DNA of 64,000 bases from Paraspadella gotoi (Eukaryota; Animalia; Chaetognatha). Location: contig CM119271.1 of assembly GCA_051294375.1 (NCBI GenBank), forward strand, positions 7,616,162 to 7,680,161, read 5' to 3'. The notes below the pieces were generated by a model. The model ran no database searches. It was not told the DNA's origin and was given only the letters and a program-made list of their open reading frames with translations. Every line of letters begins with the position of its first letter. The stretch's first letter is position 1. Both the position numbers and the translations under genes were made by a program. Below are positions 1 to 64,000 of the stretch, piece by piece.

Positions 1-4
1 CCAG

Positions 5-720
5 AGATGGCGTCGATCGTCGGCGAAGATGCTCCTCTTCGCAACCTCGTCGATTCCTCCGACAACTCTGCGGCAAACTCGGGCGACGAGGCGGAGACAG
101 CGAATCTTTCGGCCAAGTCTTCCGAAGAAAAGTTTGATGAGACGGAGACTCTTTCTCGCGGAGTCGAGTCGCCATCGTCTCTCGTCGACGCAGAAGCAGA
201 AACCGACGCCACGCCCACCGCCGAAAATCCGCCCGACTCTCATCTTCGTGAGACGCTAGTGCCAACTCCTCTTGCCGAAGAAGGCAACGACGTCGGTGGC
301 GATTTTACCGCCAACGGCGCCGTCGATCCTTTGACCCCAGTGCCTGGGCCTGCGGAAGTCGCCGCTGACGACCAAATCGCCTTTAGTCCGAAAGGCGGCG
401 TTCCAGCCGAGGCCAATGTACCCAAAGGCCTCCGCCTTTCCAATCACAAACGCAATACCGCCCATCGGCCGGCGGGGCTTCAACCGGGCCTCGCCGGTTC
501 TAAACCCTTTGGCGGTGGTTTTCGCCAGGCAGCCAAAACCTCGTCCGCTTCGTCGTCGCGACCCATCGCTGAGATTTTCGCCAAGCAAAAGGCGCAGCAA
601 GAAGGCGGAGCCGAGCGGCGCGTCGTGGACGGGGCTCGATCCGACTCGCGGACTGCGATACTGACCAACGCCAACTTCAATCTGGTCGACCGATCCAAAC
701 GCGTCATCAGCGACGATTAA
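5..720 (+). CDS. Terminal coding exon of an unidentified gene (acidic, low-complexity C-terminus); 5' part lies outside the window
   Basis: The window starts CCAG| (acceptor-like), followed by a 237-codon GC-rich open frame ending TAA at 718-720 and then AT-rich UTR-like sequence. No recognisable domain. Confidence 0.55.
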
Positions 721-1223
721 AAACCTCATTTTCTTTTATTGTTGCTAATTTTCTCGATCGTATTCAATCGATTCGAGAGCAAAAAAAAAAGGCAACTCTT
801 TTACGACAAACGAACAAACACGCGATATTTTAAACCGCACTAAATGTACACTTTTCCTCTCGCCACGCTTCTCGGCAAATAATCGTTTTCGCCGGAAGAT
901 TTTCTTTGTTCAATACTAAAATCATTCCAAGCTGAGTCGTTTCGTTTCGACGTCCGCTCGCCCTCCTCCGGCCCCCTCTCCCTTTAACTCCCATTGTTAT
1001 CCCGTTTTTACTCAAATTTCTAGTCACAAGCGGTTAAGCGCGATTACATTCTCGTTTGATTATCTCTTTTCTTTTCAAAATTTTTCGTAGGTATCTTTTG
1101 ACGACCAACTACAGCCGTTCGAACAAAATGAACATGAACGAAATTTTGCAACCAGTTCCGAGAATTACGGCTTTCAGCTACAAAGTCTGTCTGTGATAAT
1201 ATTTCAAGCTAAAATCTTTGACC

Positions 1224-4200
1224 ATGAATTTATCTAGGTAACGGAACTAATTAATTTCTTTTACTCTCGCAAGCTTTGGCTTCATTTTAGGTCTATAACT
1301 TAACAATTTCCTTTTCCTGCAGCGACCCGTCTCCCTCGGAGGATTTGGTTTGGGCCACGGCCTATTGCGGGCCGGTGGTTCCTCTGTGGAATGCGAGCTC
1401 CACGATGAGGTCGTCTTCGCCCAACCTGACTGACTGTTTTCAGAGAGCCGTTCTGGTCCCGATTCCTTGCCTCTTCTTTTTCCTCGTCCTTCCTTTCCAC
1501 GTGGTCGTCATCCGACGCAAAAATCGAGGCTACATACCCGTCGCTCTTCTCAACGCATTTAAAATGGTCGCCTTGGCATTGATGCTGCTGATGATACTGA
1601 TGGATTTTGGCATCTTGTTGTATCTACAGTACGGGCTGGATCTGTTTTTTCCTCCCGATCACTTCGCGACACCGGCGTATCTTTATCTCACGTTGTGCTT
1701 CGCGGGTGAGTCGGTGCATGGGTTATTTGGGCGATTTGATGACAACAACGACAACAACAACCTTAACGACTCTTGAACTTACCTAAATCGTGACCTACGA
1801 CTTAAGTTCAAAAAGTTAACCGACCACTTGATTCGTTTTGACTCTCATTGTTAATTGGGTTATGAGATTTACTAAAAGCAAGTTTTGTCTTTAATTAAAA
1901 AAAAATAATTATAAGCATTTATTAAAAATATCGAATTGCTCTAATTCTTAGGATGGTTGATGTACTACGAAAGACAGAAAGGATGTCAATCATCGGGATG
2001 TCTCTGGCTTTTCTGGTTCCTTCTCACTCTCGTCCTCACCGTTGCCTTTCGCTCGTACATCTTAGAACCGCAAATCGAACCGCAATACGGCAAACTCAGA
2101 TCTGTCATCTTCTTCATCTTCTTCGGCGCGGTCGTCATCGAATTCTTCCTTCATTGCTTCGCCGAAGCTACGCCTCCATCGCTCTTATCCGATCACGCCA
2201 ATCCCTGTCCCGAATCTTCTTCCTCTTTTCTTTCCCGCATAACCTTTAACTGGTTCTTCAAGATGGCCTGCCGGGGTTTCCGTAAGCCGCTTCAGGCGCA
2301 GGACATTTGGGATTTGGATCCCTACGACAGGGCCTTCAATCTCGACCAAATCTTCCGGAAAAAGTGGGAAAAGTTCGGCCATTACTGGGAAGTCCTTGCA
2401 AAGGATAGAGTCAGACTGAAAAATCTCGCCAAGTCCGAAACTCCGGAGAAGGTCGCGTTTATAAAAAAATCTCCCACAGAGAATCACGAGGAAGAATCTA
2501 AGACGAAAAATGCCGGTGGGGATGATGATGACGGCGTCGTAGTAGTCGTTCGCAACGGCCAAACCCGTGACGACGAGAACGAAACCGGCAACACCAATGA
2601 AAACGCCAAGCGCCGTCCTTTTTTCAGTCGCCGTGCCAAGGCCTCCGATAAAATCGACGATAAAAAAGAGGCCAAGGAGAAGAACCAATCCTCCTTGTGG
2701 AGCGCGCCCAGAGGTGGAAAACGCTATTTGCTCAATACTCTGTTGATCGCGTTTGGAAAGACATTTCTCTTCGCCGTGTTTTTCAAATTAATTCACGACT
2801 TGTTGCTTTTCGTCCCTCCCTACTTCTTAAACAAGCTCATCGCCTACATACGTGCCGTTCACGACGGTAAAGTGGGAACCTCGAAAAGTGAGGATTACCA
2901 ATTTTGGCACGGTTACTTTTACGCCGCCCTACTATACGTGGCGGCCATCGTGCAGACGATCATGTTGCATCAATATTTTCACCGTTGCATCTTGACGGGG
3001 ATGTGGCTTCGCTCATCCGTTATCGCTGCCATCTATCGCAAGAGTCTCAATCTAAGTTCTTTTTCCCGCCAATCGACGACCGTCGGAGAAATCGTCAATC
3101 TCATGGCCGTCGACGCGCAGAAGTTCATGGAAATCTGCACCTATCTAAACATGGTCTGGTCTGCTCCGCTGCAGATCGCCATAGGCATTTACTTGCTCTG
3201 GGGATTGCTGGGTCCTTCGACCTTGGCGGGCATCGGCGTTATGATCCTCCTCATGCCAATCAACGGCGCCTTGGCAAACTTCTACAAAGTTTATCAAATC
3301 GAACAGATGAAGTTGAAAGATGAAAGAATAAAAATGGTAAACGAGGTTCTTAACGGAATAAAGGTGCTAAAGCTCTACGGTTGGGAACCTTCCTTTCTCA
3401 GGAAAATGTCCGATATTCGAAAAAGGGAAGTCGTGTACATTCGGAAAATGGCCATTCTAAATGCCGTCTCTAGTTTGTTATGGACGTGCGCGCCAAATTT
3501 TATTTCCCTGGCCACATTCTACACTTACGTCTTGACCAATTCTAGCAAAGATCTCGATGCACAAAAAGCCTTTGTTTCCATGTCGTATTTTAACATTCTG
3601 CGTTTCCCGATGAGCGTTTTGCCGATGATGATTTCTAGTCTGGTACAGGCATACGTCTCCTTAAAGCGCATCAATAACTTTTTGCGCTTGGAAGAGTTGG
3701 ATCGGAACAACGTGGAACCGACGACGTCCGTCAACGATTCCGTGAAGATCGAGGGGGGTGCCTTCCAATGGGGCGTCGACGCTCCCATCATTCTTGACAA
3801 CGTCGATATCTCGATCAATCGGGGCTCTCTCGTCGCCGTCGTTGGCCCCGTCGGTTGCGGAAAATCTTCTCTCGTCTCTGCCATTTTAGGTAACATGCAC
3901 AAGACGCGTGGTAGAGTTACGCGCAGCTCTTCCATCGCCTTTGTCCCGCAGCAACCTTGGATCCAGAACGACACGCTTGAGTCCAACGTCCTTTTTCACG
4001 CTGCCCGTGTCGATGATCAATACGCAAAGGTCCTCTGGGCATGCGCACTCGAACCCGACCTTGCCATGTTGCCCAACGGCGACCAGACGGAGATAGGCGA
4101 GAAGGGCATCAATTTGTCAGGCGGGCAAAAGCAGCGAATCTCTCTCGCTCGCGCAGTCTACGCCGACCGAGAGGTCTATCTGTTGGACGACCCGCTCTCC

Positions 4201-6541
4201 GCCGTTGATAGCCACGTCGGCAAACACATTTTCGATCACGTGATCGGCCCGGAGGGTCTATTGTCGGGAAAGACGCGCCTTCTGGTCACTCACTCGATCG
4301 CGTTTCTGGATCGCGTTGATTACATTTACGTCGTCAACGAGGGCGTCATCACGGAGCGGGGATCCTTTGTCGAACTCATGGCCGCCGACGGAAAATTCAT
4401 GGAGTTCATAAATCTCCATTCTAAGAAGGCGGGAGAAGAAGATGACAAAGTCGTTGATTCGGAAGAGAAGGCCTTGTCCTCTCTGCAAATGAACCTGTTG
4501 ACGCCGAAGATGAGCAATGACGCGCTCTCGGTTGACGGTTCTAAAACGTCGGTACCGTCTGCCGTATTTACTACTAACGCCGAACCCGACGTAGAAACGG
4601 GCAAGAAAAGTCCCGAGGCGCAGCCGTTGTCGCCGAAACAGGCAAAATCCCCAGCGGTCAAGCTGATCCAGGAAGAAGGAGCGGAGATCGGAAACGTCAA
4701 GATGAGCGTCGTCAAGATGTACGTCTTAGCCGTGGGCACTGTCTTCGCCGTCTTCGGCAGCTTGTTTTATCTCATTCAGCAAGCCTTCGACGTTGGCATC
4801 AGCTTCTGGTTAGCCGATTGGGCCAACGAGAACGAACGATTGAAGTTGGATCCCAACGCGACGGCGACGATTGATCTCCACGAGAGACTCATCGTTTATA
4901 CGTCTTTGACCGTCATAATGGGAATCGTCGTCGTCAGCGGATCCTTCATGGTGGCTATCGGGAACATTCGCGCGAGTCGCAAGCTCCACGACGATCTCGC
5001 CTACAACATACTTCGTTCGCCCATGTCGTTTTTCGACACGGTTCCTCAGGGTCGCATCCTCAATCGTTTTTCGAAAGACATCGACACCATAGACTCCACG
5101 ATCCCTTTCTCAATCCGCGGTTTTCTCGGCACTTTTGTCCGCGTTCTCGGCACAATCATCATCGTCTGCATCAGCACCCCATTTTTTCTCGCCGTCTGTC
5201 CCTTCCTCTTTCTATTTTACTTCTTCGCCCAACGGTTCTACATCCCTGCGTCGAGGCAGTTAAAGCGATTGGAGAGCGTCACGCGATCGCCCATCTACTC
5301 TCATTTCGGCGAGTCAATCACGGGCGTCACTACCATCCGCGCCTACAATCGCCAGGACGAGTTTATCGACAAGATTTTTGAACTGGTCGACTCCAATGTT
5401 GCCTGCTACTTTCCCAACATGGTTTCCAACCGGTGGCTGGCCATTCGCCTCGAATTCGTTGGCAACTCGATCATGTTTTTCGCCGCTCTCTTTGCCGTCG
5501 TCAAGGCGAAGACGATAGAATCGGGCACGGCCGGCCTCGCCATCTCTGCCGCTATGCAGATCACTCAGACTCTAAACTGGATGGTGAGAATGACATCCGA
5601 GTTAGAAAATAACATAGTTAGCGTAGAAAGGATCAAGGAATACACGGAAACTCCCACCGAGGCGCCATGGAAAATCAAAGGGAAAAAGCCGCCCGACGAA
5701 TGGCCGCGCCTCGGCAACGTTGAGTTTTTACGCTTGGATCTTCGATACCGGGAAGGCTTGGAGCTTGTCCTCAAGGGCGTCAACATCTCCGTCAAGGACG
5801 GCGAGAAGGTCGGCATCGTTGGCCGGACAGGAGCCGGGAAATCTTCACTCACCGTGGCGCTTTTCCGCCTGGTAGAGGCGGCCGCCGGCGAAATTGACAT
5901 CGACTCTGTCGACATCGCCAAGATCGGACTCCACGACCTGAGGACCAAGCTTAGCATCATCCCGCAGGACCCCGTTCTCTTTTCGGGATCATTGAGGATG
6001 AATCTCGATCCGTTCGACGCCTACTCGGACGACGCCGTCTGGGAGGCGCTTGAGCACGCTCATCTCAAGGACTACGTCAAGGGTTTGGAAGAAGGACTGG
6101 GGCACATTTGCAGCGAAGGAGGAGAGAATCTCTCGGTAGGCCAACGTCAGTTAGTCTGCCTGGCGCGGGCGCTTCTCAGAAAATCGAAAATTCTCGTTTT
6201 GGACGAGGCCACGGCCGCCGTCGACCTGGAGACCGATCGCCTTATACAGGTGACGTTCGTTTCGATTGAAAATTTTGGAGAGAGTTATGTTTTTTTTGTC
6301 GATTGTAAATTCATTTTAATTTTTTATTGCTCCGCTCTTTACTATTTAGGCAACAGTACGATCTCAATTCTCCGCCAGCACGATCCTCACCATCGCTCAT
6401 CGTCTCAACACCGTCATGGATTACGACAAGATCCTCGTCATGGACGCCGGTCTCGTCGCTCAATACGATTCGCCACAAAACTTATTGAAAAATCAAAAGG
6501 GGATCTTCTACGGGATGGCGAAGGACGCTCACCTTGTTTAA
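1224..6541 (+). CDS. ABCC1: Multidrug resistance-associated protein 1-like ABC transporter (ABCC subfamily with TMD0); exons 1224-1237, 1323-1705, 1952-6249, 6350-6541
   Basis: Motifs include PNLTDCFQ (TMD0), [18 protein letters not shown] (L0), Walker [10 protein letters not shown] and GRTGAGKSS, signature LSGGQKQR and LSVGQRQL, and Walker B YLLDD and [12 protein letters not shown] introns join the exons in frame, and the last exon reads TILTIAHRL. Confidence 0.93.
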
Positions 6542-6825: not shown

Positions 6826-8908
6826 ATGGCCACCTCGCTTGGGGCTAACACTTACAATAGACAAAATTGGGAAGATGCCGATTTTCCCATCTTGTGTCAG
6901 ACCTGTTTGGGTGACAATCCTTACATCAGGATGACGAAGGAAAAGTACGGAAAGGAATGCAAGATTTGCGAAAGGCCCTTTACCGTTTTTCGATGGTGTC
7001 CAGGTAATTTTCCTGCTTGTTTCCCCAAGTCCCGTGATTGAGTTACCGTCTCATGTAGATGGAATTGCTTGACTTTGTCCCCTGATCTTTTCTTTTTTCT
7101 CAATTTCTTTTTTTTGGTTCATTTTTATTGTTAACGTATAAAAAGTTTTTTGCAACCATTCCCGTAATTATTTGTTTGCTCTGTTTTCTTTTCAAGAAAA
7201 AAAAATTTTATGGTTTTGCATCACAACCCACTAATCACGCTTTGCATATTACTTACCAGGAGCTAAGATGCGTTTCAAAAAGACCGAAGTGTGTCAAACG
7301 TGCTGCAAACTGAAAAACGTCTGTCAGACTTGCCTGCTTGATCTGGAATACGGCCTGCCGGTTCAAGTTCGAGATCAGGCCCTACAGATGAAAAACGAGA
7401 TGCCGAGATCCGACGTCAACAGGGAATATTACACGCAGGTACGTTGTTGGTAGGACTATGTGGGATTGTTCTTTTTTATTTTTAAAATTAATGAAAATTA
7501 ATGTATTCTTGTATTTTGCTAGAATGCCGAACGCATGCTGGATCAAGCTGGGACATCGGGCTCATTGACTGCGGTGGGCGGCGGGAAAATGTCGGCGCCG
7601 TCCGACATGCTTCTCAAACTGGCTCGAACTACTCCGTACTACAAGAGGAATCGTCCGCACATTTGCTCTTTTTGGGTCAAAGGTAAGGTTTCGGTCATGT
7701 TTACTGTATAGGATTTAGATTGTTATTGAGTGAAACTAAACCCAATTTTTCATTTGTTTTCCCGGTAATTAACTGCATTATTTTCTATTTAATTCGTTTT
7801 ATCGTTGCCAAAGGCGAATGTAAACGTGGTGAGGAATGTCCCTACCGTCACGAGAAACCGACAGATCCCGACGATCCTCTTGCTGATCAAAACATCAAGG
7901 ACAGGTTCTACGGGTCCAACGATCCCGTCGCCAACAAACTCCTCAATCGCGCCCAAGCAATGCCCGCGCTCAGGCCGCCTGAGGACCAAAGGTAAATATT
8001 AAGTTTTTCTAATTTAAATACTAAATAGAATTTTTACCATAAAAAAATAAATGAATTGATTTGTCATTTAGCGTTACAACTCTCTATGTGGGCGGCATCG
8101 TGGACGAATCGATCACGGAAAAGGACCTTCGCGATCATTTCTATCAGTTCGGCGAGATTCGCTCAATCAACTTGACTCACAAGAATCACTGCGCCTTCAT
8201 CACTTTTACCACTCGTAGTGCCTGCGAACAGGCCGCCGAAAAGTCGTTTAACAAAGTAAGTACCAGAATATTGCGTTTGTAATGTGGAGTTGTTCATCAT
8301 TAAAAAAACTTATAAGGAATTTTAAAGTGTTGGTTGTAATAATTTTGTATAACTTTTACTCTTTCCAGTTAATCGTTCACGGAAAACGATTGACGGTACG
8401 ATGGGGACGAAGCCACGGTCTCGGAGGAAGAGAAGACGAAGATGACGGTGCGCCGAACAGAGGAACGAAAACCGAACCCGTACCTAATCTTCCTGGTATG
8501 ATTATATTTATTATTTTATCAGGCCACCCTGATGTGATGAGCGGGGTTTTCCGTTTTTAAATATCATCTGCATATTTCCACATTTACACTTATTTCTCAG
8601 GCCCGGTGCCGATGCCGCCGCAAGAGCTTGTCATGGGTAACGATTTTTTCAACCTCGGTGGATCTATACCTCGCCTTCCCGCGGGATTGCCGCCGCCGCC
8701 GATGATTCCCGCCGGATGGATGCCGCCGCCACCGGGAATGGGGGCGCCCTTCCGGCTTCCCGCCGGCGCGATGCCAATGCCTGGCATGAACCTTGCGCCC
8801 GGAATGATGGCTCCGGGAATTCGTAGTTTCGCTCCGGTACATTATCCATCGCAGGATCCCACTCGCATGGGTGCCAACGACGGCGCTGGCTCTTCGAAGA
8901 ATTCTTGA
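6826..8908 (+). CDS. RBM22: Pre-mRNA splicing factor RBM22 (zinc fingers + RRM + Pro-rich tail), 7 exons
   Basis: [55 protein letters not shown] (CCCH) and the [11 protein letters not shown]...[14 protein letters not shown]. The exons join in frame. Confidence 0.96.
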
Positions 8909-9151
8909 CCATCCTTAGTGAACCAGATTCGTTCTCTGTTGCTTTTTTCCCCTTCGATTGAATGGATATGTAAATTTGTTTTCTCACCACTGAAATGTAT
9001 TCACACTACTATAATTCTTGTGCATTTCTTTTTTTTCCCTTAAACACAGCCGCTCGGATTCATGATTCTGTTTGCTTTATTTTTGTACGACATAACTTGT
9101 ATAAAGACGCAACAAATCCAAAGACCTAAAACCTAAAAATAAGCTTCTAAG

Positions 9152-12100
9152 ATGCCGACCTATTTTCAACGCCCCGAGAATGCCCTGAAAAGGGCAAACG
9201 AGTTCATCGACGTCGGAAAGAAGCAGGTAAGATATATGTGATGATTTAAAAATATTTAAACGATGAAAGTTAATTTCAACGTGGATGATTAATTCATTGT
9301 TTAATTCTCTTGTTAGCGAGCTTTGGACGCCCTGTATGACGTGATCAAGTCGAAGAAGCATCGAACATGGCAGAAGATTCACGAGCCGATCATGGAAAAG
9401 TACCTCGAGCTCTGCGTGGACCTGCGGAAGAGTCACGTGGCGAAGGAGGGCCTCTACCAGTACAAAAACATTTGCCAACAAGTCAACATCAAATCCCTCG
9501 AAGATGTCGTTCGTGGCTTCCTCAAACTGGCAGAGGAACGCACCGAAGAGGCGCGAGAATCTTCCCAGCAAACCGTCTTGGACATCGAGGATCTCGATCA
9601 GGTCTTTTCAACATTTTCTTTACAAATCATAATTACAGATAAATTATCTTTCCATTTTCCCATCCGTAGCTGACCACGCCGGAATCCCTCCTTCTGGCCG
9701 CCGTGTCTGGGGAATCCACGCAGGATCGAACGGACCGAGAGATGCTGACCCCGTGGGTCAAGTTTCTGTGGGAAGCTTACAGGCAGTGTTTGGATCTGCT
9801 CAGAAACAACGCTAGGGTCGAAAGGCTGTATCAGGTGAGCAGTGGAGGTGGCGATTAGAGTCCGTTTTATAAATGAACTTCCTTTAAATTATCATTTCAT
9901 GATAACAGGATACAGCGCAGAATGCGTTCAAGTTTTGCATCAAGTACGCGCGCAAGACTGAGTTTCGCAAGTTATGCGATAATCTTCGGATGCATCTCGG
10001 ACACGTCACTAAGCACCAACACCAAGCGTCGTCGATTAATCTCAACAATCCGGATAGTCAGGTTAGCTTTTCCATGTCCCGAGTTATTGTCGAATGTAAC
10101 AAAATTGCAACATGCCTCTTCGCAAATTAATTTTTCTTCGTTCCTGTGATTTGTCCAGGCAATGCACTTGGAAACTCGCCTTGCGCAATTGGATTCCGCG
10201 ATTACAATGGAATTGTGGCAGGAAGCGTACAAGGTCAGTCTAGGTTATCACAATTGATCTATTTGTCCCTCAATTACCTTATCTTTGTTCTACGTTGTAG
10301 GCTATCGAAGACGTTCATAACATGATGGGGCTGTCGAAAAAGCCGCCCAAGCCTCAGCTGATGGCCAATTACTATCAGAAATTGGCGCTGGTCTTCTGGA
10401 AGGCGGGCAACAAGCTTTTTCACGCCTGCGCGCTCGCACGTCTTTTTCAGCTCTCGAGAGAGCAGCGGAAGAACCTCTCAAGTCAGTGGAAGATGAATTT
10501 CACAATCACTTTCCTCTTTTTATATCTTTACTTTTTTTTCCCCCCCATTTTCAGGTGACGAGCTAGCCAAGATGGCGACGCGTCTGCTCCTTTCCACGCT
10601 GGGTATCCCGCTCCCGCCGGCCCGCGGTGAGATGGACAAGCTGCTGGACATGCAAGACAACACATTGGAAAAGCAGCGCAAACTCGCTACGCTGCTCGGC
10701 CTCAACACGCCGCCCACTCGAAGCTCGCTTCTTAAAGGTTGGAGTCGTGGAATTGTACGCAGCGACTTTAAAGATTTACGCGATATGATTTTGTGACATA
10801 TTCCGCCCCTTTTCTCCCTCATAGAACTGAACAAGATCGGCGTGATCCAGTTCGTGCCGCCGGAAATCGCGGTCCTGTTCACGCTCCTTGAAGCTGACTT
10901 CGACCCCTTGAAGCTCTGCCACCGCGTCAAGCACTCCCTCGACGCCATTGAGGCCTTCGCCACCGCCAAGGATCCCTCCATCCAGCAATATGTGGGCTCG
11001 TTGCAGGACATCGCCATCGTTCGTCTCATCAAGCAGTTGTCGCAGGTGACAAGAGCAAAGAAATTTTGAGGTTGTTAAAATTAATGTTAAATCATTAAAT
11101 AGTTTGGCTTAGCAGATAATATTTTGAATATATATGAATTTTGATCATTTGTGAATTTCCTATGAAAAAACATACATATGTGACTTAGTTTGATTTTATT
11201 TTTCCATATTCTGCGACTCCCAGGTGTACGACACCATCTCCCTGTCTCGCGTGTGCGAGCTGATCCCCTTCTCCAGCCCCCAGCACGTTGAGCTCGTGCT
11301 GATCGACGCCTCGCGCAACTTCGATCTTCAAGCGCGCGTGGATCATCGATCCGGATCCGTCGCGTTCGGGCAGGATCTGTCGGGATCGCACAGGGACGAA
11401 TTCCCCGCCGACGACGCTCCAGTGTTCCAGGTGAGAGAGAGAGAGCGAATAAAAAATATGAAGAAAAAGAAATAACGAGAGAAAAATAATAAGAGAGATC
11501 CAAAATTTATTTTTTTCCCGCACTCTAGGCTATGCCCAGCGACGTTATACGCGATCAGATTCGTAACATGTCTGACATCCTGAACAAAGCGGCGCTCAAG
11601 ATTAATCCTACGGCCCAACTACAGGGGCTGGAGGAACTGAGGCACCAACTGCTGCATGTCTACAAGAAGACCGCAAGGAACGAGCATACCCAGGTACGAT
11701 GGACAAGCAAGCTCTTTTGTTCTTAATTTTCGTATTAAATTTTATTTTCGTTCTCCCAGGTTCTCCACCGCCGTCAAATCATCGAAAACCGGAAGGAGAT
11801 GCTGGAAACGGAAAACACGCGTCGCGAGCGCGAGGAGCAGGAGGCGTTGGAGGAGCAGCGGCGCCAGGCTTACGTGCAGGAGCAGGATCGGCTCAACAAG
11901 GAGGCCGAGGAACGCGAGCGACAGAGGCAGGAGCGAGAGAGGACGGAGATCCAGAAGCAGCTCAACCGGGAACGTCTGGAGAAGCTGAAGACCACCGTGC
12001 TGGGATCGAAGATTGTCAAGGTATTAGTTCTTTAATTTAATTTTAGAAAAACCTTAAACCTTAAAATTTAACTGCAGAGCTCATCTTAATGTTTCCTTTC

Positions 12101-14766: not shown

Positions 14767-15357
14767 ATGTCAAAGCGGCCAGTTCGTAGCGAGACCAAAA
14801 CTCTGTCTTCTTTCTGCGACTTTTTGAAAAACTTTCCCTCGATCGAAGAGGAGCAGGCTTCGCGGATCCGTCGCGTCCCGACTGACCGCGAGGTCGAGAT
14901 CACCCTGCACGACTGCCCGACCGACGCCTTTGCGAAAGACTTTGCCCGCCTTTTTCCCGACAACTCCGCCTTCACCCCTGCTGCCCTCTCCTTCCGCCTG
15001 GCCGTCTTCTCCTTTCGTACCGACCACGATATGTCCGGCTGGTCCGGCGCCGTTGAAACGGAGCGTGCCGCCCTCGCCGACGACTTTCTCGGAGCCGGAT
15101 TTGCCGTCTGCGGTGCTCTTCGTCGGCGCGGATTTTGGGCCGACGTTGTTGACGCCGCTACCGGAAAGCCTCAACGCGGCGGCGGGGCCAACGATGCCCT
15201 CTTCGAAATCGACGACCGACTGAGGCCTTTCGGGGTGGGAGTCGAGGACCTGGGATGCTGCAAGTGCGTCAGACATCGCGAATTCGGCACCAGAGCTTTT
15301 TTGGGATTCTTGTTTAGCGACGCGAGTTTCGAAGAGATGGAGCGACTTTTGTTGTAG
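14767..15357 (+). CDS. MMADHC: Cobalamin trafficking protein CblD/MMADHC-like (C-terminal domain only), intronless
   Basis: DFARLFP, DMSGWSGAVETER, LRRRGFWADVVD, LFEIDDRLRPFGVGVEDLGCCKCVRHREFGT match the MMADHC C-terminal motifs (GYWADFIDP, DDLGCCKVIRH). Confidence 0.85.
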   Translation: MSKRPVRSETKTLSSFCDFLKNFPSIEEEQASRIRRVPTDREVEITLHDCPTDAFAKDFARLFPDNSAFTPAALSFRLAVFSFRTDHDMSGWSGAVETERAALADDFLGAGFAVCGALRRRGFWADVVDAATGKPQRGGGANDALFEIDDRLRPFGVGVEDLGCCKCVRHREFGTRAFLGFLFSDASFEEMERLLL

Positions 15358-15951: not shown

Positions 15952-19305
<3,354 letters not shown>

Positions 19306-20297
19306 GACTAAAATGCTCGTCGCCCAAAAAAAAGGGGGAAAAAAACATTGGCGAGTCATCGAAACGAGTTGACAGATTGAGGTTTTTCTTTTTCATAAAT
19401 ATCGTTGAGAGTTTCTTCTGGTGCTCGCCTAAAAAGTCTGCAACGACGCGCCCTCCGCGACTACAGTTTTTAATATTTCGTTACGTTGCCTTCGTTTTTG
19501 TGTTTAGGACATCGCGTGCTTGTTGACTACATTTGCGTACTTTCATCGATTATTAATATCTTTGACTTTGCTTGGCATTCTATCATTCTAGTCGGCTAGG
19601 TTTCTTAATTTTTGTTTAGATACCCCATTTTTTTCAAAAAAAAGGAACGAATTAATAGTTTTTTTTATTCACGGGTGTGTCAATGTATTGCGAGATCCAT
19701 TAGGGGATTAGTCGATTGAAAGTGTTGATAATTTTTGACAAAATGAAACTTTTTTTCTTCCGTATGTTAACGCACCTTTTCTTTCAGCAGCCGTTTGCAT
19801 TTAAATTGTGCTTCCGCGTTGATTTTGGTTTTTCTTATTCCGATTTATAGGAAGTGAAACTTGAAAATGTCGAGCGGAGGAGCTTGCGGATCTTCGAACG
19901 GTTCCAGCGAAAAACTTGCGTTATTAAACTCATTTCGTGTTTTATTTTATGTGCTTTCTTTACCAGGTCGCTGAAAAAGGAGCAACGGGTTGGTGATTAC
20001 TGATTACGTTACGTACTAGACGAACACTTTACGATGACATTTGACCCTAAAAGAAAGGTGCCGTTTTGAAGTCGCCGTTTGGTTCGGGTTCAGTGATGTT
20101 AAATTACCGATTTTTTGCAGTAGTGAAAGTGAAAGTGAAATTGTCGGAGGTGGATTTTCATTATGAAGAATTGTTGCCGTGAGGAGATTAGAAGTTTGAG
20201 AGATGAGACGGTTAATTTTTTCGAAAGTGGTTGGAATACGAGTTGGTTTTTATGGTGTACGGAATTACGGATGATCTCCAGGACTATATACTATATA

Positions 20298-44088: not shown

Positions 44089-44120
<32 letters not shown>

Positions 44121-52222: not shown

Positions 52223-55200
52223 ATGGAGGCTGTTACAAATGCCTCTCCCCGTAGTGCGGACCCTTTAGATGTCGCACCAGTGGATGCGACGAAGGGTCAC
52301 GCCGCGGGCGACACTTCGCTCGATTCGGAGATTACCAACGATCCTAAAAATTCAAACGGCCTCCCGACCACGGTGTTTCTGCCTCGATCCGATGTCACCA
52401 ACGGCGAATCGACTCTGGACGAAGAAAACGATCCCGAGTACCGCTGCGGCTGGTGCGGCGCCTCCTGTCGCTGTCTTTGGTCCTTCCGGTCGCCCAAGTG
52501 GGCGCTGGCTCTTCTTTGCCTCTCCTCGGTCATGCAGGGTTTCATCGTCAACGGGTTGCTCAACGTGGTCATTTCAACGATCGAGAAGGTCGTGAGAAAA
52601 TGGGAGAGGGGGTGAGGACAACCTGTTGCAGCAGGACTTAATTTCTTTTTTTTTATTCCGCAGAGATTCCACCTGACGTCGAAAGAATCGGGAATGATTC
52701 GCGCCACAAATAGCGTCTCCCAAATGATCTGCACTTTTCCCGTCAGTTACTTCGGGGGCAAGGGGCGCAAGCCGAAATATCTTGGGATCGGCGTCATGTG
52801 CATCGGTTTAGGTCACTTGAATATTCGACTTTTGTGCCTTATTAAAATTCTCATAGTTGTAGTAGTGACAAATATTTTTCTCCATTTTCTCTTTTTAGGC
52901 GCATTCATCTTTTCCCTGCCTCATTTCATATCAGAGGTGTACCAGCCTAATCCATCCAGCGCTTATCATGCTACTTCATCTAGTTTATGTTCCGACAATT
53001 TGGCGCTTAATCGCTTAAAGGCGCTTAGCAATTATCACGACAATAAAACTGTGATCGGGTTAGTTCCATTTTTTGGTTTTTTTTTGTTTTTTACGAAATA
53101 ATTTTGTTTTTCTTTTTCAGTCCCTCCAAGTCGTACGAGGGCCACTCGCTTAACTCTCTCAAATACTTCTTTTTCCTCGGACAAATATTTCATGGCGCGG
53201 GGTCATGCCCACTCTGGACCCTTGGCGTCACTTACCTCGATGAAAACTTACCCACGAAGACGAGCTCCTTGTACGTGGGGATATTTTACGCTTTTGCCGT
53301 TTTGGGCCCAGCGTTGGGCTACATCGGCGGCGGTCGGCTTTTGAAGGTCCTTGCTGCTAGTGTTAACTTAAAACTCGTTGTATTTGCCTTCAATGTTGTT
53401 ATTGATTGGCCTTTGACAGATTTACACTGATTTTGCGGCTGTGCCTGAATCCGATCTGCATGGCTTAAATCCAAATCACCCAAACTGGGTTGGCCTCTGG
53501 TGGATTGGATTCGTTCTTGCTTCCTTCGTCAGTCTGACCGTCGGGTAATGAAAAAAAGATTGACATCGCACGATCGATAGAGAGAAAAATTTCAAATCGT
53601 TCAACCCTGTCAACCAGATTCATCCTTTTCGCTTTTCCCGCCAAACTCCCCGGATGGAAGCGCATCCAAGCGCTGCGCATTAACGAGAGCATCGACGTTC
53701 GCAAGCGATCCGCCGATGACCGACGCTCGCCCTCTCCGGAGAACGGGAATGGGCGAGGCTTCGCTCGCCACTTCCGCCCCGTCCTCCGCGACATCCGCGC
53801 TTTAAGCCTCAACTGGCCCTTTATTTGCGTGACGCTTAATCAAACGGCCGAGGGGTTCCTTCTCGCCATCTACTCGGCCTTCATGCCCAAGTTTCTCGAA
53901 TCGCAGTTCCGCGCTTCGGCCTCTGACGGGGCCTTCTTCGTGGGCATTATCATCGGTGAGTGATTGACAGAAAGATGGACAAACGGACGGACAGATAAGC
54001 GGACAAATAGACTTAGAGCGGCGAATAAAATGGAAAACAAAGAAAGGGGGAAAAAATGTCTGAAATGTCAAATTAATTTAGTGTTTTGCGGCGCGACGGG
54101 AATGATCTTCGGTGGTTGGGTCATAAAGAAGTTTGACATGAGTTGTTACTCTATTATGGTCGCGGTCACTATCGCTACAATGCTTCAACTTCCGCAGGTT
54201 TTGGGAAATTTGTTGCGAATTTTGAAGGATTAATTACGTATCGTCAGTTTTTTTAATTGAAATTTTCTCTTCAGAATTTCGCCTTTTTATCGATGTCATG
54301 TGACCGCAGTTCTTTTTCTGGAATCGATTACCCACCTAATATCCAAAACACGGTAAGTCGTCGAGCATGTATTGACATCATCGACAATGACGTGTTTACC
54401 GTTCCAATTCAGAGCCCGCTTCTTACTCAAAGCTGCAACTCAAACTGTTCTTGCGCTGGAGCGAACTACGATCCCGTATGCGGAACCGACCTGATGATGT
54501 ACTTCAGCCCCTGTCACGCAGGCTGCAGCTCGGCCGACGACGGTAAAGTGCCTCTTTTTTCGACCTTCACCCTAATAATCTTGTCATTATCTTAAACCAA
54601 CAAAGCCTATCCACTGAGTGTCCAGTGTCCAGCCTCTCCACCAAAGCCTGTCCGGTGTCCAAAGTCNNNNNNNNNNGTGTCCAGCCTATCCACCAAAGCC
54701 TCTCCGGTGTCCAAAGTCAGGGGCAAGATAGCTTATTTATTAAATGAATGGATAATTTTTTTTATTAGTTGTACCAATTTCATAAAAAAGAATATTTTCT
54801 CTTAGTCTTACCTTCGATCTTCACCCTTTACCCTTTAGGCGGCATCGGAAAAATAACCTACTCCAATTGCAGCTGCGTGAACAACACCTCTTCCGCTGGA
54901 ACGAACGCCTCGTTCGGCGGCGCCATCGGCGGCGGATGTCCGCCCGACGCTTCCTGTCGCAACTGGATAATGTACCCCTTCCTCCTCATCTTCGCCTCGC
55001 TTCTCTTTCCCATGATCGCCACGACGTCTCCAGCGATGCAGGCGACGCTAAGGACGGTTCCCTCTGAGCTCAAGTCGGTCGCTCTGGGGATTCAGGTCGG
55101 TGGGCGGCTTGATACGAAGCTTGAACGTATTCAAAATTATTGAACTTATGTTGTTTCTGTTCACAGTTGGTGATGTCGCGACTGTTTGGCGCTGTTCCGG

Positions 55201-55592
55201 GACCGCCTACCTTTGGCTTCATTTTTGATTCCGCCTGTTTGCTATGGCAGAACGAGGCATCCGGCGGAAGTGAGTTTCTTCTTGAAATGTCATCGCCGCT
55301 GGCTATCGTGAATTTTACCTAGTTAGGGACTAAGTGCCATTTACCGGCTGTTACTTATTTCGTCTCGATATCTAGGAGGAGCGTGCGTCGTTTACGATCA
55401 AAAATATTTATCGCTCGCAATGTTTTCGGTTGGTCTCATTTGGAAGATACTGTCTACGGCGTTCATCTTGGCATCTTGCCTCTTCTATCGCTCGTACATG
55501 AGGTGAGCTTTTCGGGAAGTACTTACCTCGAATGAAAGAATTATCCCACTTTTTTTGATCATTTTTATCTCGCCAGACGGGCGAATGCCTGA
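52223..55592 (+). CDS. Solute carrier organic anion transporter (SLCO/OATP family), multi-exon
   Basis: VNGLLNVVISTIEKRF, PVSYFGG, LGVTYLDEN, GPALGYIGGG, WVGLWWIGF, the Kazal-like CNSNCSC...YDPVCG...YFSPCHAGC and GFIFDSACLLW. Confidence 0.9.
54625..54718. repeat. 42-bp direct repeat on both sides of a 10-N assembly gap inside an SLCO intron
   Basis: 54625-54666 and 54677-54718 differ at 2 positions. The Ns occupy 54667-54676. Confidence 0.85.
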
Positions 55593-55849
55593 CTTGGGCG
55601 AGATGTTAATTCGTTTCTGCTTCTTTTAACCATCAGCATGATCTTTTATATTCAAATGTTTCATATTCCTACACTCATTTGTTTGTTTTATTTACAAAAC
55701 AATTTATATATATATATAGACAAGTTAAGCTCTGCAGATATCTCTTTTAAATATCTGTCGCTCTCTCTCTTTTTTATTATGTCACTCTTTTTTTTCTGTC
55801 GCCGCTTCTTCTGATTCGTTTAAAAACGAATTAAGCTCTGCAGCGGCAC

Positions 55850-57684: not shown

Positions 57685-59459
57685 ATGGAGTATTACGAGA
57701 TAGAGGAGGATAAAATGGGGATGCGAGTCACGTCGGGAGCCGTGAAAATACGGTAGGACATGTCGTACTTGCGCCCTTTTTTTCGCGTCCCGTTTACGAT
57801 TCATCTTTGTTCTTCGCAGAAAAGACACCAATAACTTGATCGGCATCAGCATTGGTGGCGGATCTCCTTTGTGCCCGTGCCTTTATATCGTTCAAGTAAG
57901 ACGAGCCATGTTCATTGTCTAATATTAGTTAAACACAATCTGTGGTCATTGGATAATCTGATAGGTTTTCGACAACACCCCCGCCGCTAAAGACGGCACC
58001 CTCGCATCTGGCGACGAGATAACCTCCGTCAACGGGTCCAGCGTTAAGGGCAAAACCAAGGTCATGTCTGCTATTTGCTAATGGATGAAGCGCCATTTGC
58101 TATTCTTTAACTTTGTCTTTATCTCCAGGTGGAAGTCGCCAGAATGATCCAGGGTGTTTCCCAAGACGTCACCATCCACTATAACAAACTTCACGCCGAC
58201 CCGAAGCAGGGGAAATCCCTCGACATCGTACTCAAGAAGATGAAGGCGAGTGATCCGATTCGGATGAACTCGATTTTTCACATTTGCCTTATTTTTATTT
58301 ATGATGAAAAACTCGCAGCACAAAGTGGTGGAGAACATGTCATCGTCGACGGCGGACGCGCTTGGTCTCAGCCGCGCCATCCTTTGCAACGACGGCCTGG
58401 TCAAAAAGCTGGAGGAGCTCGAGTCCAACGCGGGGATGTATCGCGGCCTCGTCGAGCACGTGAGGAAGCTCCTTCGCGCCTTCTACGACCTCTCGCGGGT
58501 CCACAAGGCCTTTGGCGAAGTTTTCGCCGCCATCGGCGTCCGCGAACCTTTGCCCAACGCTTCCGAGTCCTTCACCAAGTTCGGAGAGACTCATCGCGAG
58601 ATCGAAAAGTTTGCCATCAAGATGCTCAAGCAGGTCAAGCCCATCATAAGCGATCTGGGCACCTTCCTCTCCAAGGCGGTGCCCGACACGAGACTCACCA
58701 TCAAGAAGTACGCCGACTGCAAGTTCGAGTACCTCTCCTACTGTTTGAAGGCGAGTTTGGCGTTGGTTGGGTTAAGAATGGGTTGAACACGCCAAGATCT
58801 TTTCAAATTCATCCTAGGTGAAAGAGATGGACGACGAGGAATACTCTTACGCGGCGATCCACGAACCACTCTACAGAGTCGAAACCGGGAACTATGAGTA
58901 CCGACTCGTACTACGATGTCGCCAACTCTCGCGTGAAAAGTATGTTCGTCGTCGGTTTCGTTTGTTTTTAAACAAAAAAAATTTCGAATCAACTCGATGT
59001 TCAGATTCGCCAAGATGCGGTCGGACGTGCTTGTTAAGATGGAGCTGCTTGATCAGAAGCACGTGCAGGACACGGTTAACCAACTCCAGCGCCTCATCAC
59101 CGCCTTGCAGACTTTTTACGACGATTGCGCCCGCGCGCTCAAGGAATCCCAACACGTTTTTCCCATTGAAGTCGATCTCTCCTCCTCCATGCTGGGTATG
59201 TAATTGGACGTGATGTCACGAAAATGTAGCGTCTTATTTTTTTGGCTAAAATTAAATGTATTATTAAACTCATTAATCAGGCCTTTCCGTGACCGACCCG
59301 ATGCGAGTTTTTCACGACGAAGCCGAAGACAACGAGGATGATGACGAAGAAGCCGGTTCCCCATCGCGCGTGAATCAGCAAGGCGGGGATCAAGGCGGCC
59401 GGAAAGAGGCAGCGCTCATCGATTGGAACGCCGACGCCCCCATTATAGATTTAAATTAG
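57685..59459 (+). CDS. PICK1: PRKCA-binding protein PICK1 (PDZ + BAR/arfaptin), multi-exon
   Basis: YEIEEDKMG, NLIGISIGGGSPLCPCLYIVQVFDNTPA, ENMSSSTADALGLSRAILCNDGLVK, KFEYLSYCLKVKEMDDEEY and EPLYRVETGNYEYRL. Confidence 0.96.
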
Positions 59460-60401: not shown

Positions 60402-62512
60402 ATGGCGGAGAAGCCTTGGACGAGCATCGACCCCGTCGCCGTCATTCTCGTCTCCTCAGGAAGTCGCGGTGACAAACTTCTCTTCCGTTATCCCGTCGAC
60501 GACGACCGCGACGACGATTCTGAGGGCGCCCAAAGGCCCGAAGCCTCGACGAATCCCGGTCCGGCCGGTTCCACCCTCTCGGCGCCTCCTCCGCCCGCGG
60601 ACTCCAAGCGCGCTCCTCCCACCTCTCGTCAGCGTCCCACCGTCGTTCTCAACCAAAACCCTTACGCCGTTCCCATCGTCGAGGACTACGGAGCTTCCAT
60701 TCGGCCCCTCAAGGTGCCCAAGACCTGCGTGGGGCCTCGCGGGACTCTCGTCGGCTTCTCCGACAAAATCCTGGCCACCCTTTTGGCCGTCAAGCAAGAA
60801 CTCTGCGGAGGAAAGTTCGAGCTCAAGATCAACGACGTTGTCTTTGTCGGGCATCCCAAGCTGCTCGAGCACGCCGGCGCGGGTCCGCCGGCTCAGCCTT
60901 CCACGTCTGCGGCTTCGATGGAGACGCAGCCGGCAAATAAGAAGGAAGCGTCGACGCTCATCCTCTTCAACGTCGTCTTCGCTTTGGCGGCGGAAGCGAG
61001 TTTCGAAATCCGCAACTGCATCCACCAATTAGCGCTTTCCTTCGCTGCCGCCCTCGCTCACGAAGAGCACCGCTGCGGATTCTTGACGCACCAGGCGAAA
61101 CGCATGATCGCCGTCCTCGACGAATCGGCCGGAACGTCGGCGTCCTCGTCCGGAAGCGGCGCCGGCGCCGGTTCGACCCCCGGCGGCGTCAACGAGACGG
61201 ATTCGCCGTCGCGAGCGTCGCCGTTCAAGTCGATGTTAAGTCAGTGTTTGTTGGCGAGGAACTTGGCCGACGCACTCGACAGCCTTAAGGAGAATGGAGT
61301 CGTGCAGCTTCACGTCAACCGGTGGATTCCCATCTCCTTCTGCCTGCCGCACAAGGTGCACCTCCAACGGGCTTCGCGATCCTACGGACGAAACTCCCTT
61401 CTTCCCAAACAGCTCGTCCGACCCTTTCGACTCACGAGCGTTCTTAAGGCGCTTTCATCGCTGCAGCCTTATCACGGGTTGCTGCTTCTGGAGGAGTCGC
61501 GCGCCATCTTGGAACGGTTGCCGGTGGACTGTAGTCCGGCCCTGGTCCGCGTCATCAAAACGGTGTCGCCGCTGAAAAAGTTGGAGACGATCGCCGTGGA
61601 CTCTGACCTCGCCCTTGCTCAGGTCTTTCAGATCGCCTCTCACCTTGTCTACTGGGGAAAGGCCTCCGTCGTCTACCCGCTCTGCGAGAACAACGTTTAC
61701 GTCGTCTCACCCAAGATTCACCGCGATGCCGTTCACGACGGATCCAAACTCTGTCGGGATTTCGACAAAAACTTTAACCGAAGTCTTCAAGTCACGCTGG
61801 CTGAATTTTCCCTACCCGTACCGCTTGGTTAGTAAATTGTTTTGTTTGTTGTTTTGTTTTGTCTGTTTTTGGCCGACTTTGTTATTGCTAAACCGCAACC
61901 CCTTTTTTCTCATTTTCTTTCCTTTAACTGGGTCCAACTTTTTTTTCATCCCCCCAAAAAGGCGATCACCAAGCTCCATACGCTCGCCCTCAGGAATACA
62001 ACGATCGAGTCAAGCTGCTCATGTGGCTTTTGCAACGAAACCTTCTCCAACAACTGCACACCTACGTCTACCTCCTCGTCGAGGATCTCGCCGACCCACC
62101 CACGCCCAAGTCGCGCGGGGTGTTTTCGAAGGAAACTACGACCACGACGACGGCGTCGGCTGCGTTCGGCTCCGTCGACGCCACGTCGCGATCGGAGGAA
62201 ATTCCGACGACCGACTCGACTCCAGCGTCGTGGCGCGCCTCCGCCTCCTCTAAGACGCAGGAGTTGCTCACGGCGGAACTCTCGAGCGCCGAGCGGCGCG
62301 CCGTCTTCCGACTCGACGCCGCCAACAACTCGGACGATCTCAAACTCTTTGCTCGTCTCGTCAAGTATTTTCGCGGGCGGCAGCACCTCGAAGAAATCAT
62401 GTTCTACGAAAACATTTCTCGATCGCAGATCCTCATCATCGTCGACAAATTCCGGGAGGTGCTGGTGGCCACGATGCATCCCGATCCCGTCACTTCAGTT
62501 TTTCTCGAATGA
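60402..62512 (+). CDS. NPRL3: GATOR1 complex subunit NPRL3; exons 60402-61827 and 61962-62512
   Basis: VILVSSGSRGDKLLFRYP, FSDKILATLLAVK...KFELKINDVVFVGHP, HEEHRCGFL, HLVYWGKASVVYPLCENNVY, WLLQRNLLQQLHTY and YFRGRQHLEEIMFYENISRSQ. Confidence 0.95.
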
Positions 62513-63431
62513 TTACCGTTACGTTTAAATTTTTTTTATAAAAAAAGTAAACGAATACGTTGCCCGTTTCAGTTTTTGAATTTTGTTATTCTAGTCATTT
62601 ATTTGATACCCGCCGGTCGAATCTACAAAAGTTAGCTATTAAATTCAAAATAGTTTTAACGTTTCTCGTTTTGTATTTTTAAATATCGAGAAAAAAAAAT
62701 TACAGTTAATATTAAAAATAAAACTTCTCTAGCCTAATGTTTAATGACTTTTTAGTTTTGTCCGTTATATCAGCTTTGTCTCAGGTCGACCTTAATCCCT
62801 TGTCCTTTTGTTTCTGCCATCAATGTCCTCCATCTTCTCTCCTTGCGATTTCAGTCGGCTTTCGTGAGTCAAAGGGAGAGAAAAAAATTTTTTTTCTCAA
62901 CCTCTCGTTTGGACGATGCAAACCTGAGACAGAGATAAAAAAAAACAAACGAAAGGAGACAAAGAGAGAAAAACGTAATCTCGTTGCGTGTCGAAACATC
63001 ATCATCGCCGCCTCGGACACTGGCATCTCGCACGCAAACGCCCGCGTTATATGTCGCTTAGCCTTGCGGTCCAGTTTGTCATTAGATGTATGAATGCGCA
63101 GGAAACTCGCGAATTCAGCAAAAATTTCTCCCCTTTTTTTTCCCTTTCAAATCCGATTCTCTCTTTGGGGAATTTCCGTCGCGAACCCTTGTTTGTTTTG
63201 GCGTCTACCAGTCGCCTTTTTTTCTATTGCAAATCTTCTTTTTTTTAATTTAACTTAGGAGATTTCGTTCGAATTTCGTCGCAGTTTCGATTCCGATATA
63301 TTTTGGAAAAAGATCTCCCTCTCAACGTAAAAACCCAGAACGATGATTCATCACTGAATCGAAAATTGTTTAGATACAAACTTAAGTTAACGAGACTCAA
63401 AGAGAAAGAAAGAAAAAAAAAACCCACAAAA

Positions 63432-64000
63432 ATGTCGGGGCCTCCTTACTTGCCGCCCTTTTACCAACATCAGGGCATGGGAGGCTTTTACCCGCCTGGT
63501 GCGGCTCCGCAATTTCAGGGCCTCACTTATCCTCAGCAATTTCCGCACCAGCAGTCGCCACCCGCCGCGTTTCCGGTCTCCCTGGCGCAAGCTCCGCCTC
63601 CTCATCCGTTCCAGCAACCGCCGCCGCCCCACTCCGCCCATTTTCCTCCCCAGCAAATGCCTTCCCCGCAAGCCCGGCCGTCCTACCCCGCCAGTCAGGC
63701 GAATCACGTCAATCATCACAATCAGGCGTCGCATCCTCACGGACAGTCGAATTACGCCCCGGCCAATCACCAAGCCAACCACCAGAGCGGCGGCGGTGGT
63801 GGTCATGCGTCCAATCAACGGTCGCAACATCATCAGCCGCATCATCAACAGCAGAATCAACAACAGCCATCCCGTCATCAAAAGAAACACAACGAATCTC
63901 ACCAAAATTTCCAGTCGTCGTCTTCGTCCGCGCACCCGCCGCGCGGGCCCCAGCAGGCTTGGGGCGAGGACGCTCGCGGGTCGCAGCCCCGATTCGAAAA
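63432..64000 (+). CDS. 5' end of an unidentified gene with a Pro/Gln/His/Asn-rich low-complexity N-terminus (runs off the window)
   Basis: AAAATG at 63432 opens a stop-free + frame to the window end (MSGPPYLPPFYQHQGMGGFYPPGAAPQF...HHQQQNQQQ). It is GC-rich like other exons and has an upstream TTTAG at 63369-63373. Confidence 0.7.
   Translation, partial: MSGPPYLPPFYQHQGMGGFYPPGAAPQFQGLTYPQQFPHQQSPPAAFPVSLAQAPPPHPFQQPPPPHSAHFPPQQMPSPQARPSYPASQANHVNHHNQASHPHGQSNYAPANHQANHQSGGGGGHASNQRSQHHQPHHQQQNQQQPSRHQKKHNESHQNFQSSSSSAHPPRGPQQAWGEDARGSQPRFE

What the first reader, a model, noticed from the sequence alone, without database searches (positions are those of the whole stretch)
1..64000. All 18 genes are co-oriented in tight runs: candidate eukaryotic operons
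Seen: every recognisable gene is on the + strand (chance 2^-17 if orientations were independent). Stop-to-start gaps are 503, 284, 243, 469 and 594 bp in the first run, 453, 254, 377, 303, 302, 632 and 735 bp in the 8-gene SUZ12-ACSS2 run, and 942 and 919 bp in the last run. Only the three larger gaps (~5, 2 and 2 kb) hold repeats or transposon debris. Known: this layout marks polycistronic units resolved by spliced-leader trans-splicing in nematodes, tunicates, flatworms and chaetognaths, typically enriched for growth, RNA and mitochondrial housekeeping genes as here. Inference: operons of at least 6, 8 and at least 3 genes, which would be long for an animal and could be undescribed in this lineage.
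Basis: partly seen in the sequence, partly recalled or inferred. Interest (0 to 1): 0.85.

Follow-up and report, generated by a model that had tools for sequence, protein, structure and literature searches.

The report
Arrow-worm operons with spliced leaders
Eighteen genes lie on one strand of arrow-worm DNA and matching RNA carries arrow-worm-type spliced leaders on two internal genes, so the tight runs are likely operons, a mechanism already described in arrow worms.

Summary
None of 244 minus-strand ORFs passes a Pfam cut-off. The organism is a chaetognath: RPL35 exon 3 is 84% identical to Spadella cephaloptera. RNA contigs of one public run carry two different non-genomic leaders, both ending GTTTAAA like published chaetognath spliced leaders (PMC2481426), joined at the AG acceptors of eIF3a and an orphan gene (2 of 10 starts examined). 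Spliced contigs cross four spacers unbroken, and a LARS2 donor splices in cis onto the ADAR acceptor. Three of five upstream RNA ends fall on the AG before the next gene (one shown, two calculated), as in Ciona operons without intercistronic DNA. So the runs are likely leader-resolved operons. They are not undescribed: chaetognath operons are published (18% of genes, up to nine genes; PMC12460157), and this scan noted a nine-gene case elsewhere in this genome. Promoters, single-molecule precursors and transcription across the three large gaps were not tested. The 2^-17 figure overstates the case; four independent blocks give 1/8.

The parts
1..720 (+). Gene 1, cut by the window start; no known family
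   Evidence: 239-codon open frame; RNA record 1 covers 1-1235 and has 1287 letters before the window; no Pfam hit
1224..6541 (+). ABCC1/MRP1-like ABC transporter
   Evidence: Pfam; about 53-55% identity to full-length bilaterian MRP1/ABCC3 hits; same RNA record as gene 1; calculated RNA end 6788 on a CAG 37 nt before the RBM22 ATG if all remaining letters align
6826..8908 (+). RBM22/Slt11-like splicing factor
   Evidence: Pfam STL11_N and RRM_1; gene name by inference from these domains
9047..9050 (+). Trans-splice acceptor of eIF3a (pyrimidine tract, CAG|C); leader A joined at 9050
   Evidence: 29-nt loose 5' end ending TTGTTTAAA; absent from the window with up to 3 mismatches
9152..14297 (+). 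eIF3a
   Evidence: Pfam; 15 GT..AG joints in RNA
14767..15357 (+). MMADHC/CblD-like gene, single coding exon
   Evidence: Pfam, homologs; RNA record 3 starts at 14752 by the CAG at 14751-14753 with 42 unaligned, unprinted letters and runs unbroken to PAK exon 1
15952..19305 (+). PAK-family kinase
   Evidence: Pfam PBD and Pkinase
19306..24304 (.). 5-kb AT-rich gap with tandem repeats; likely boundary between runs
24305..27970 (+). SUZ12
   Evidence: Pfam Zn_SUZ12 and VEFS-Box
28424..32761 (+). SENP/Ulp1 protease; RNA end calculated at 32988, the G of a T10-CAAAG acceptor-like site
   Evidence: Pfam Peptidase_C48; bin-depth reconstruction
33016..33649 (+). FUNDC1/FUN14; RNA record starts at 33014 directly after a CAG and ends at 33993, the G of the next acceptor
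   Evidence: Pfam FUN14
33991..33994 (+). Trans-splice acceptor of the orphan ORF (pyrimidine tract, TAG|G); leader B joined at 33994
   Evidence: 37-nt loose 5' end, last 30 printed, ending GTTTAAA; absent from the window with up to 3 mismatches
34027..35334 (+). Intronless 435-aa orphan ORF
   Evidence: leader-bearing RNA record; no Pfam hit; 0 hits among 1.84 billion representatives; weak RRM-like look-alikes under 0.8
35638..36166 (+). RPL35 (uL29)
   Evidence: Pfam; exon 3 is 41 of 49 identical to Spadella cephaloptera uL29
36469..40526 (+). Leucyl-tRNA synthetase, LARS2-like
   Evidence: Pfam tRNA-synt_1 and Anticodon_1; 10 introns spliced in RNA; mitochondrial assignment is inference
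40418..41149 (+). Cross-gene cis-splice: donor inside the last LARS2 coding exon joined to an AG 10 nt before the ADAR ATG
   Evidence: joint skipping 730 nt, GT..AG, 29 letters on the short side; out of frame with ADAR
41159..46533 (+). ADAR-family deaminase
   Evidence: Pfam dsrm and A_deamin; HAE, PCGD and SCSD stretches present (their catalytic role is recalled)
47269..50164 (+). Acetyl-CoA synthetase, ACSS2-like
   Evidence: Pfam ACAS_N and AMP-binding
52223..55629 (+). SLCO/OATP transporter, flanked by 2-kb gaps; not shown to be operonic
   Evidence: Pfam OATP
57685..59459 (+). PICK1-like gene
   Evidence: Pfam Arfaptin; name by inference
60402..62512 (+). NPRL3
   Evidence: Pfam NPR3
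63432..64000 (+). Gene 18, cut by the window end; Pro/Gln/His-rich, no known family
   Evidence: open frame; no Pfam hit; RNA not tested

Best explanation
The tight runs of co-oriented genes in this chaetognath DNA are likely operons: each run is likely transcribed as one precursor and cut into single mRNAs by spliced-leader trans-splicing at the AG before each downstream gene. Shown: one strand, short spacers, two GTTTAAA-ending leaders on internal genes, RNA contigs across four spacers, one cross-gene cis-splice. Inferred: at several junctions the upstream mRNA ends at the very AG used as the next acceptor, with no AATAAA nearby, so its 3' end would be made by or at the trans-splicing cut, as proposed for Ciona. 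Inferred: one promoter per run, upstream of the window, near SUZ12 and near PICK1, with SLCO on its own. Several leader forms are likely used interchangeably.
For: Lineage: RPL35 exon 3 has 3 hits among 8 candidates from 5.8 billion proteins; the top and only named one is Spadella cephaloptera at 84%. Leaders: of 5 printed X1 5' loose ends (3, 2), 2 end in GTTTAAA and both sit right after a pyrimidine tract plus AG, 102 and 33 nt before an ATG; the other 3 lie inside introns. 25 of the 26 leader forms in Table 3 of PMC2481426 end in GTTTAAA, and leader A shares its last 10 letters with two F. enflata form-3 leaders. Neither leader is in the window. Bridging: unbroken pieces 1-1235, 14752-15992, 33994-35748 and 36017-36653 belong to records that are spliced elsewhere. 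The depth of 22 of 25 bins checked is fully explained by the spliced records, so introns are empty and DNA carry-over does not explain the bridges (the other 3 are the SENP record and one intron). LARS2-to-ADAR joint. RNA ends on an AG: 33993 shown, 32988 from bin depth, 6788 from record length; 4.1% of spacer positions are the G of an AG and 0.6% follow a pyrimidine tract. No A[AT]TAAA within 60 nt before these ends. Published: trans-splicing in 10,197 of 21,072 genes and operons for 18% in P. gotoi; 3 nt between poly(A) site and acceptor in S. cephaloptera.
Against: A leader was seen at only 2 of 10 gene starts inside the two laid stretches. At ABCC1, PAK, RPL35 and LARS2 the contigs pass the start with no leader branch; for RPL35 and LARS2 the bin depths leave no room for a separate leader record. 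MMADHC's 42 unaligned letters were not printed, and hid 47 loose ends and 116 pieces. Contigs are not molecules, so a bridge shows no single transcript. All RNA comes from one run of one study, whose RNA status is the tool's guess (its spliced joints support it). Two of five upstream ends (14717, 41043) are not on an AG. About half of chaetognath genes are trans-spliced but only 18% are operonic, so a leader alone does not prove an operon. Stop-to-start gaps of 632-942 nt leave room for internal promoters.
Confidence: 0.85

Rival explanations
1. Hybrid arrangement: the runs are strings of shorter operons of two to four genes, and some genes (ADAR, ACSS2, PAK, NPRL3) have their own promoters in the longer spacers or inside the upstream gene.
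For: Spacers of 594-942 nt at five junctions. The LARS2-ADAR joint links only 29-30 LARS2 letters to ADAR, which also fits an ADAR promoter inside LARS2. P. gotoi averages about 2.4 genes per validated operon (3,565 genes in 1,470).
Against: From SENP to ADAR every junction laid shows a bridge, an end on the next AG, or a cis-splice. This rival keeps the operon mechanism and only shortens the units.
Confidence: 0.35
2. No operons: each gene has its own promoter and a trans-spliced outron, and the bridges come from overlapping UTRs or read-through.
For: Many chaetognath trans-spliced genes are not operonic. Assembly can join overlapping transcripts.
Against: FUNDC1 RNA ends on the AG that receives the leader of the next gene, so that gene's outron lies in the FUNDC1 transcript. 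The same geometry is the argument for operons in Ciona (PMC1488885 passages). Independent genes would not be expected to share one strand 18 times.
Confidence: 0.08
3. The whole 64 kb belongs to one or two long directional transcription units that also cross the 5-kb and 2-kb gaps.
For: No minus-strand gene anywhere, including the large gaps.
Against: Four blocks share a strand by chance 1 time in 8. The large gaps are AT-rich, hold at least 7 A[AT]TAAA motifs each and tandem repeats in two of them. No RNA was laid across them.
Confidence: 0.07

Closest known systems
Chaetognath operons: Spadella cephaloptera RPS14-PCNA (PMC2481426; sections 12 and 13 read) and Paraspadella gotoi genome-wide operons (PMC12460157; passages read)
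   Same: Same phylum; leaders ending GTTTAAA; several leader forms; almost no distance between upstream RNA end and downstream acceptor; housekeeping genes; runs up to about nine genes.
   Different: The middles of both leaders seen here match none of the 26 forms in Table 3 of PMC2481426. P. gotoi's three leader sequences could not be seen (spreadsheet too large; not in the three readable supplements), so they may be these. Whether this window is P. gotoi and these runs are in its operon list could not be tested.
Ciona intestinalis operons without intercistronic DNA and C. elegans SL1-type operons (PMC1488885 passages; PMC7986045 passages)
   Same: Upstream 3' end abuts the downstream trans-splice acceptor; no AATAAA close upstream (Ciona 16 of 18); no operon-specific leader in Ciona.
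   Different: Ciona operons are mostly two genes (up to six or seven) with one leader; here runs reach eight genes with at least two leaders. The leader sequences are of the chaetognath type.
C. elegans SL2 operons (PMC7986045 passages)
   Same: Co-oriented, closely spaced genes resolved by trans-splicing.
   Different: About 100-nt intercistronic DNA and a dedicated SL2. Here two internal genes carry different leaders; both chaetognath papers report no position-specific leader.

Membership tests
SL-resolved operon (chaetognath type) | Adjacent genes on one strand with short spacers | tested here: met
   18 of 18 on +; 14 gaps of 243-942 nt, median 461
SL-resolved operon (chaetognath type) | Downstream genes carry a non-genomic 5' leader joined at an AG acceptor | tested here: met
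   2 of 10 starts examined (9050, 33994); leaders absent from the window. Not shown for the other 8.
SL-resolved operon (chaetognath type) | Leader of the chaetognath family (3' end GTTTAAA, 5' end GGAAGC) | tested here: inconclusive
   3' end met for both leaders. 5' end not seen: leader A begins GCTT, which fits positions 5-8 of forms 2 and 4; the first 7 letters of leader B were not printed.
SL-resolved operon (chaetognath type) | Organism is a chaetognath | tested here: met
   RPL35 exon 3 84% to Spadella cephaloptera; exon 1 36 of 38; leader type
SL-resolved operon (chaetognath type) | Polycistronic precursor RNA | tested here: inconclusive
   Contigs cross 4 spacers and one cis-splice links two genes, introns empty; contigs are not single molecules
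SL-resolved operon (chaetognath type) | One promoter per run, none in the spacers | not testable with these tools
   Needs CAGE, nascent RNA or chromatin data
SL-resolved operon (chaetognath type) | SL RNA gene elsewhere in the genome with splice donor and Sm site | not testable with these tools
   No genome held. One 22-nt match in metagenome contigs (L001) has no GT donor and is taken as chance.
P. gotoi operon criterion (PMC12460157) | Gene models, UTRs included, less than 250 nt apart with at least one leader-bearing gene | tested here: inconclusive
   Transcript distance 0 nt at FUNDC1-orphan and about 36 nt at eIF3a-MMADHC; UTR ends unknown at most other junctions
Ciona-type operon without intercistronic DNA | Upstream 3' end coincides with the downstream acceptor AG, without nearby AATAAA | tested here: inconclusive
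   3 of 5 ends on an AG: 1 shown with the leader at the next base, 2 calculated; poly(A) letters not printed
Nematode SL2 operon | Leader dedicated to downstream genes | not testable with these tools

The most novel reading that the evidence does not exclude
Chaetognath operons are much longer than the published nine-gene maximum: this 64 kb is one or two directional units of 14 to 18 or more genes, in which upstream 3' ends are made by the trans-splicing cut itself, and the LARS2-ADAR junction is a regulated switch between cis-splicing (truncated synthetase fused to the ADAR message) and trans-splicing.
Probability: 0.1. Interest if true: 0.7.

Novelty: new member of a known kind. Interest (0 to 1): 0.33.

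Why it matters
It adds two long, well-marked examples (6 or more and 8 genes) to a kind of operon already known in arrow worms, plus two leader forms not found in the papers searched. The useful new detail is the junction geometry: if upstream mRNAs end on the next acceptor, chaetognaths would share with Ciona the unsolved problem of how one precursor yields both mRNAs, and these junctions give exact sites to test it. The LARS2-ADAR joint is a direct place to study competition between cis- and trans-splicing.

Tried and rejected
Whole-genome strand-run statistics: no genome is held. Sequencing runs: 3 listed, none on record as RNA; X1 holds 0.60 of the words and shows spliced joints; X2 and X3 gave only short matches of 18-41 letters and were not used. 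Leaders in print: full-text searches for a 17-letter part of each leader found 0 papers; the P. gotoi spreadsheet supplement could not be read and may hold them. SL RNA gene: the single metagenome match L001 lies in unrelated AT-rich DNA without a donor and without an Rfam hit; rejected as chance. Rfam on the window: 1 match far below its cut-off. Simple splice-motif counts by strand were mixed (donors 24 vs 40, 42 vs 40, 12 vs 9; acceptors 42 vs 29, 32 vs 25) and are not used. ABCC1 and MMADHC searches did not place the lineage. Xenoturbella was considered as the source; the paper search gave nothing relevant and RPL35 pointed to chaetognaths. Transposon proteins in the large gaps: none at cut-off among 147 ORFs. 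Orphan ORF: no homologs, Atlas scores 0.82 or less; a single-sequence fold was submitted but had not finished after six collections, so there is no structure result. A search for cross-gene cis-splicing in operons gave 2 papers, seen as listings only, neither on leader-resolved operons. DNA carry-over as the cause of the bridges: rejected for 32600-41300 because introns are empty. No leader at RPL35, LARS2, ABCC1 or PAK in contigs: absence in contigs proves nothing.
Full report
Observation. I rebuilt the gene map from six-frame ORFs, the sequence and Pfam. Fifteen of 18 genes have Pfam support on +. None of 244 minus-strand ORFs of 55 aa or more reaches a curated cut-off, nor any of 147 ORFs of 30 aa or more in the three large gaps. 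The chance figure of 2^-17 holds only for independent genes; with four blocks as units it is 1/8. Repeats occur in the large gaps and also in introns; transposon proteins were not found.

Lineage. ABCC1 is about 53-55% identical to full-length proteins of molluscs, annelids, insects and vertebrates alike, and MMADHC 36-44% to its four hits, which places nothing. The third exon of RPL35 drew 8 candidates and 3 hits; the best and only named one is uL29 of the chaetognath Spadella cephaloptera at 41 of 49 residues, and exon 1 matches it at 36 of 38. The window is chaetognath DNA; the species was not determined. Two earlier notes of this scan reach the same lineage for this genome; I saw them after my own test.

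Leaders. One public run, X1, holds the region as contigs with GT..AG joints, so it behaves as RNA. The eIF3a record begins at 9050, directly after a pyrimidine tract and CAG, with the loose end GCTTCTGTATTTTCTAGAGCTTGTTTAAA. The record of the orphan ORF begins at 33994, after a pyrimidine tract and TAG, with 37 loose letters whose last 30 are GCAGTTGACGCAACTCGACGCGGGTTTAAA. Neither occurs in the window. Published chaetognath leaders start GGAAGC, and 25 of 26 forms end GTTTAAA, not AG (PMC2481426, section 12 read whole). Both ends here share that tail, and the first shares ten letters with F. enflata form 3. The other 3 printed 5' loose ends of X1 lie inside introns. Of 10 gene starts in the laid stretches, 2 show a leader, 1 (MMADHC) has 42 unprinted unaligned letters, 1 (FUNDC1) starts exactly after a CAG, 4 are passed by contigs without a leader, 1 (ADAR) is entered by a cis-splice and 1 (RBM22) was hidden by the cut tables.

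RNA across spacers. Records that are spliced elsewhere run unbroken over gene 1-ABCC1 (1-1235), MMADHC-PAK (14752-15992), orphan-RPL35 (33994-35748) and RPL35-LARS2 (36017-36653); one 5046-nt record holds the leader, the orphan, RPL35 and LARS2. Rebuilding the depth table shows no cover in introns in 22 of 25 bins, the rest being the SENP record and one intron, so DNA carry-over does not explain the bridges. A joint skips 730 nt from a GT inside the last LARS2 coding exon to an AG 10 nt before the ADAR ATG; it drops the last 35 LARS2 codons and is out of frame with ADAR. It is the only assembled ADAR 5' end in this run. It shows RNA that starts at or before LARS2 and reaches ADAR, but not where that RNA starts. 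Contigs are not molecules, and all of this is one run.

Junction geometry. The FUNDC1 record ends at 33993, the G of the AG that receives the next leader. The SENP record ends at 32988 by bin depth and the ABCC1 record at 6788 if all its remaining letters align; both are the G of an AG, 27 and 37 nt before the next ATG. Two other ends (14717, 41043) are not on an AG. Only 4.1% of spacer positions are such a G. No A[AT]TAAA lies within 60 nt before the three ends. This matches S. cephaloptera, with three bases between poly(A) site and acceptor, and Ciona operons without intercistronic DNA (PMC1488885, passages).

Mechanism. Shown: one strand, short spacers, two chaetognath-type leaders on internal genes, bridged spacers, one cross-gene splice. 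Inferred: one precursor per run, resolved by trans-splicing with interchangeable leaders, and upstream 3' ends formed at the next acceptor. Untested: promoter number, the junctions SUZ12-SENP and ADAR-ACSS2, the last run and the large gaps. The main rival keeps operons but breaks the runs into shorter units with internal promoters.

Comparison and verdict. In Paraspadella gotoi 10,197 of 21,072 genes are trans-spliced, 18% are in operons, the longest has nine genes, and three leaders are used without operon specificity (PMC12460157, passages). Its spreadsheet supplement could not be read, so these runs and leaders may already be listed there. PMC7986045 was seen as outline and passages. Interest 0.33.

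Noticed in passing
window 40418-41149: A cryptic donor in the last LARS2 coding exon is spliced to the ADAR acceptor; this is the only assembled ADAR 5' end in run X1. It truncates LARS2 by 35 codons and its stop overlaps the start of the ADAR frame. By-product of read-through, an ADAR promoter inside LARS2, or a regulated switch.
   Followed up: partly
window 34027-35334: Intronless 435-aa orphan with a spliced leader, no Pfam hit, no homolog among 1.84 billion representatives, weak RRM-like look-alikes in its C-terminal part by inference from the Atlas list.
   Followed up: partly
window 1951-6249: ABCC1 is encoded mostly by one 4.3-kb exon, while neighbouring genes have many short introns (29 joints of 64-325 nt, median 87).
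   Followed up: no
window 14717: The eIF3a RNA record ends 36 nt before the MMADHC acceptor with 25 loose letters that are not poly(A); allele difference or assembly chimera.
   Followed up: no
window 54625-54718: A 10-N gap sits between two copies of a 42-nt repeat in an SLCO intron, likely an assembly join.
   Followed up: no
window 38250-38419 and 7012-7207: Intron stretches of LARS2 and RBM22 draw extra contigs with loose ends, likely short dispersed repeats.
   Followed up: no
window 21412-21864: A 151-codon minus-strand ORF in the 5-kb gap overlaps a 58-nt tandem duplication; no Pfam hit.
   Followed up: partly
whole window: CpG observed/expected is 1.36, in line with the reported lack of gene-body methylation in P. 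gotoi.
   Followed up: no
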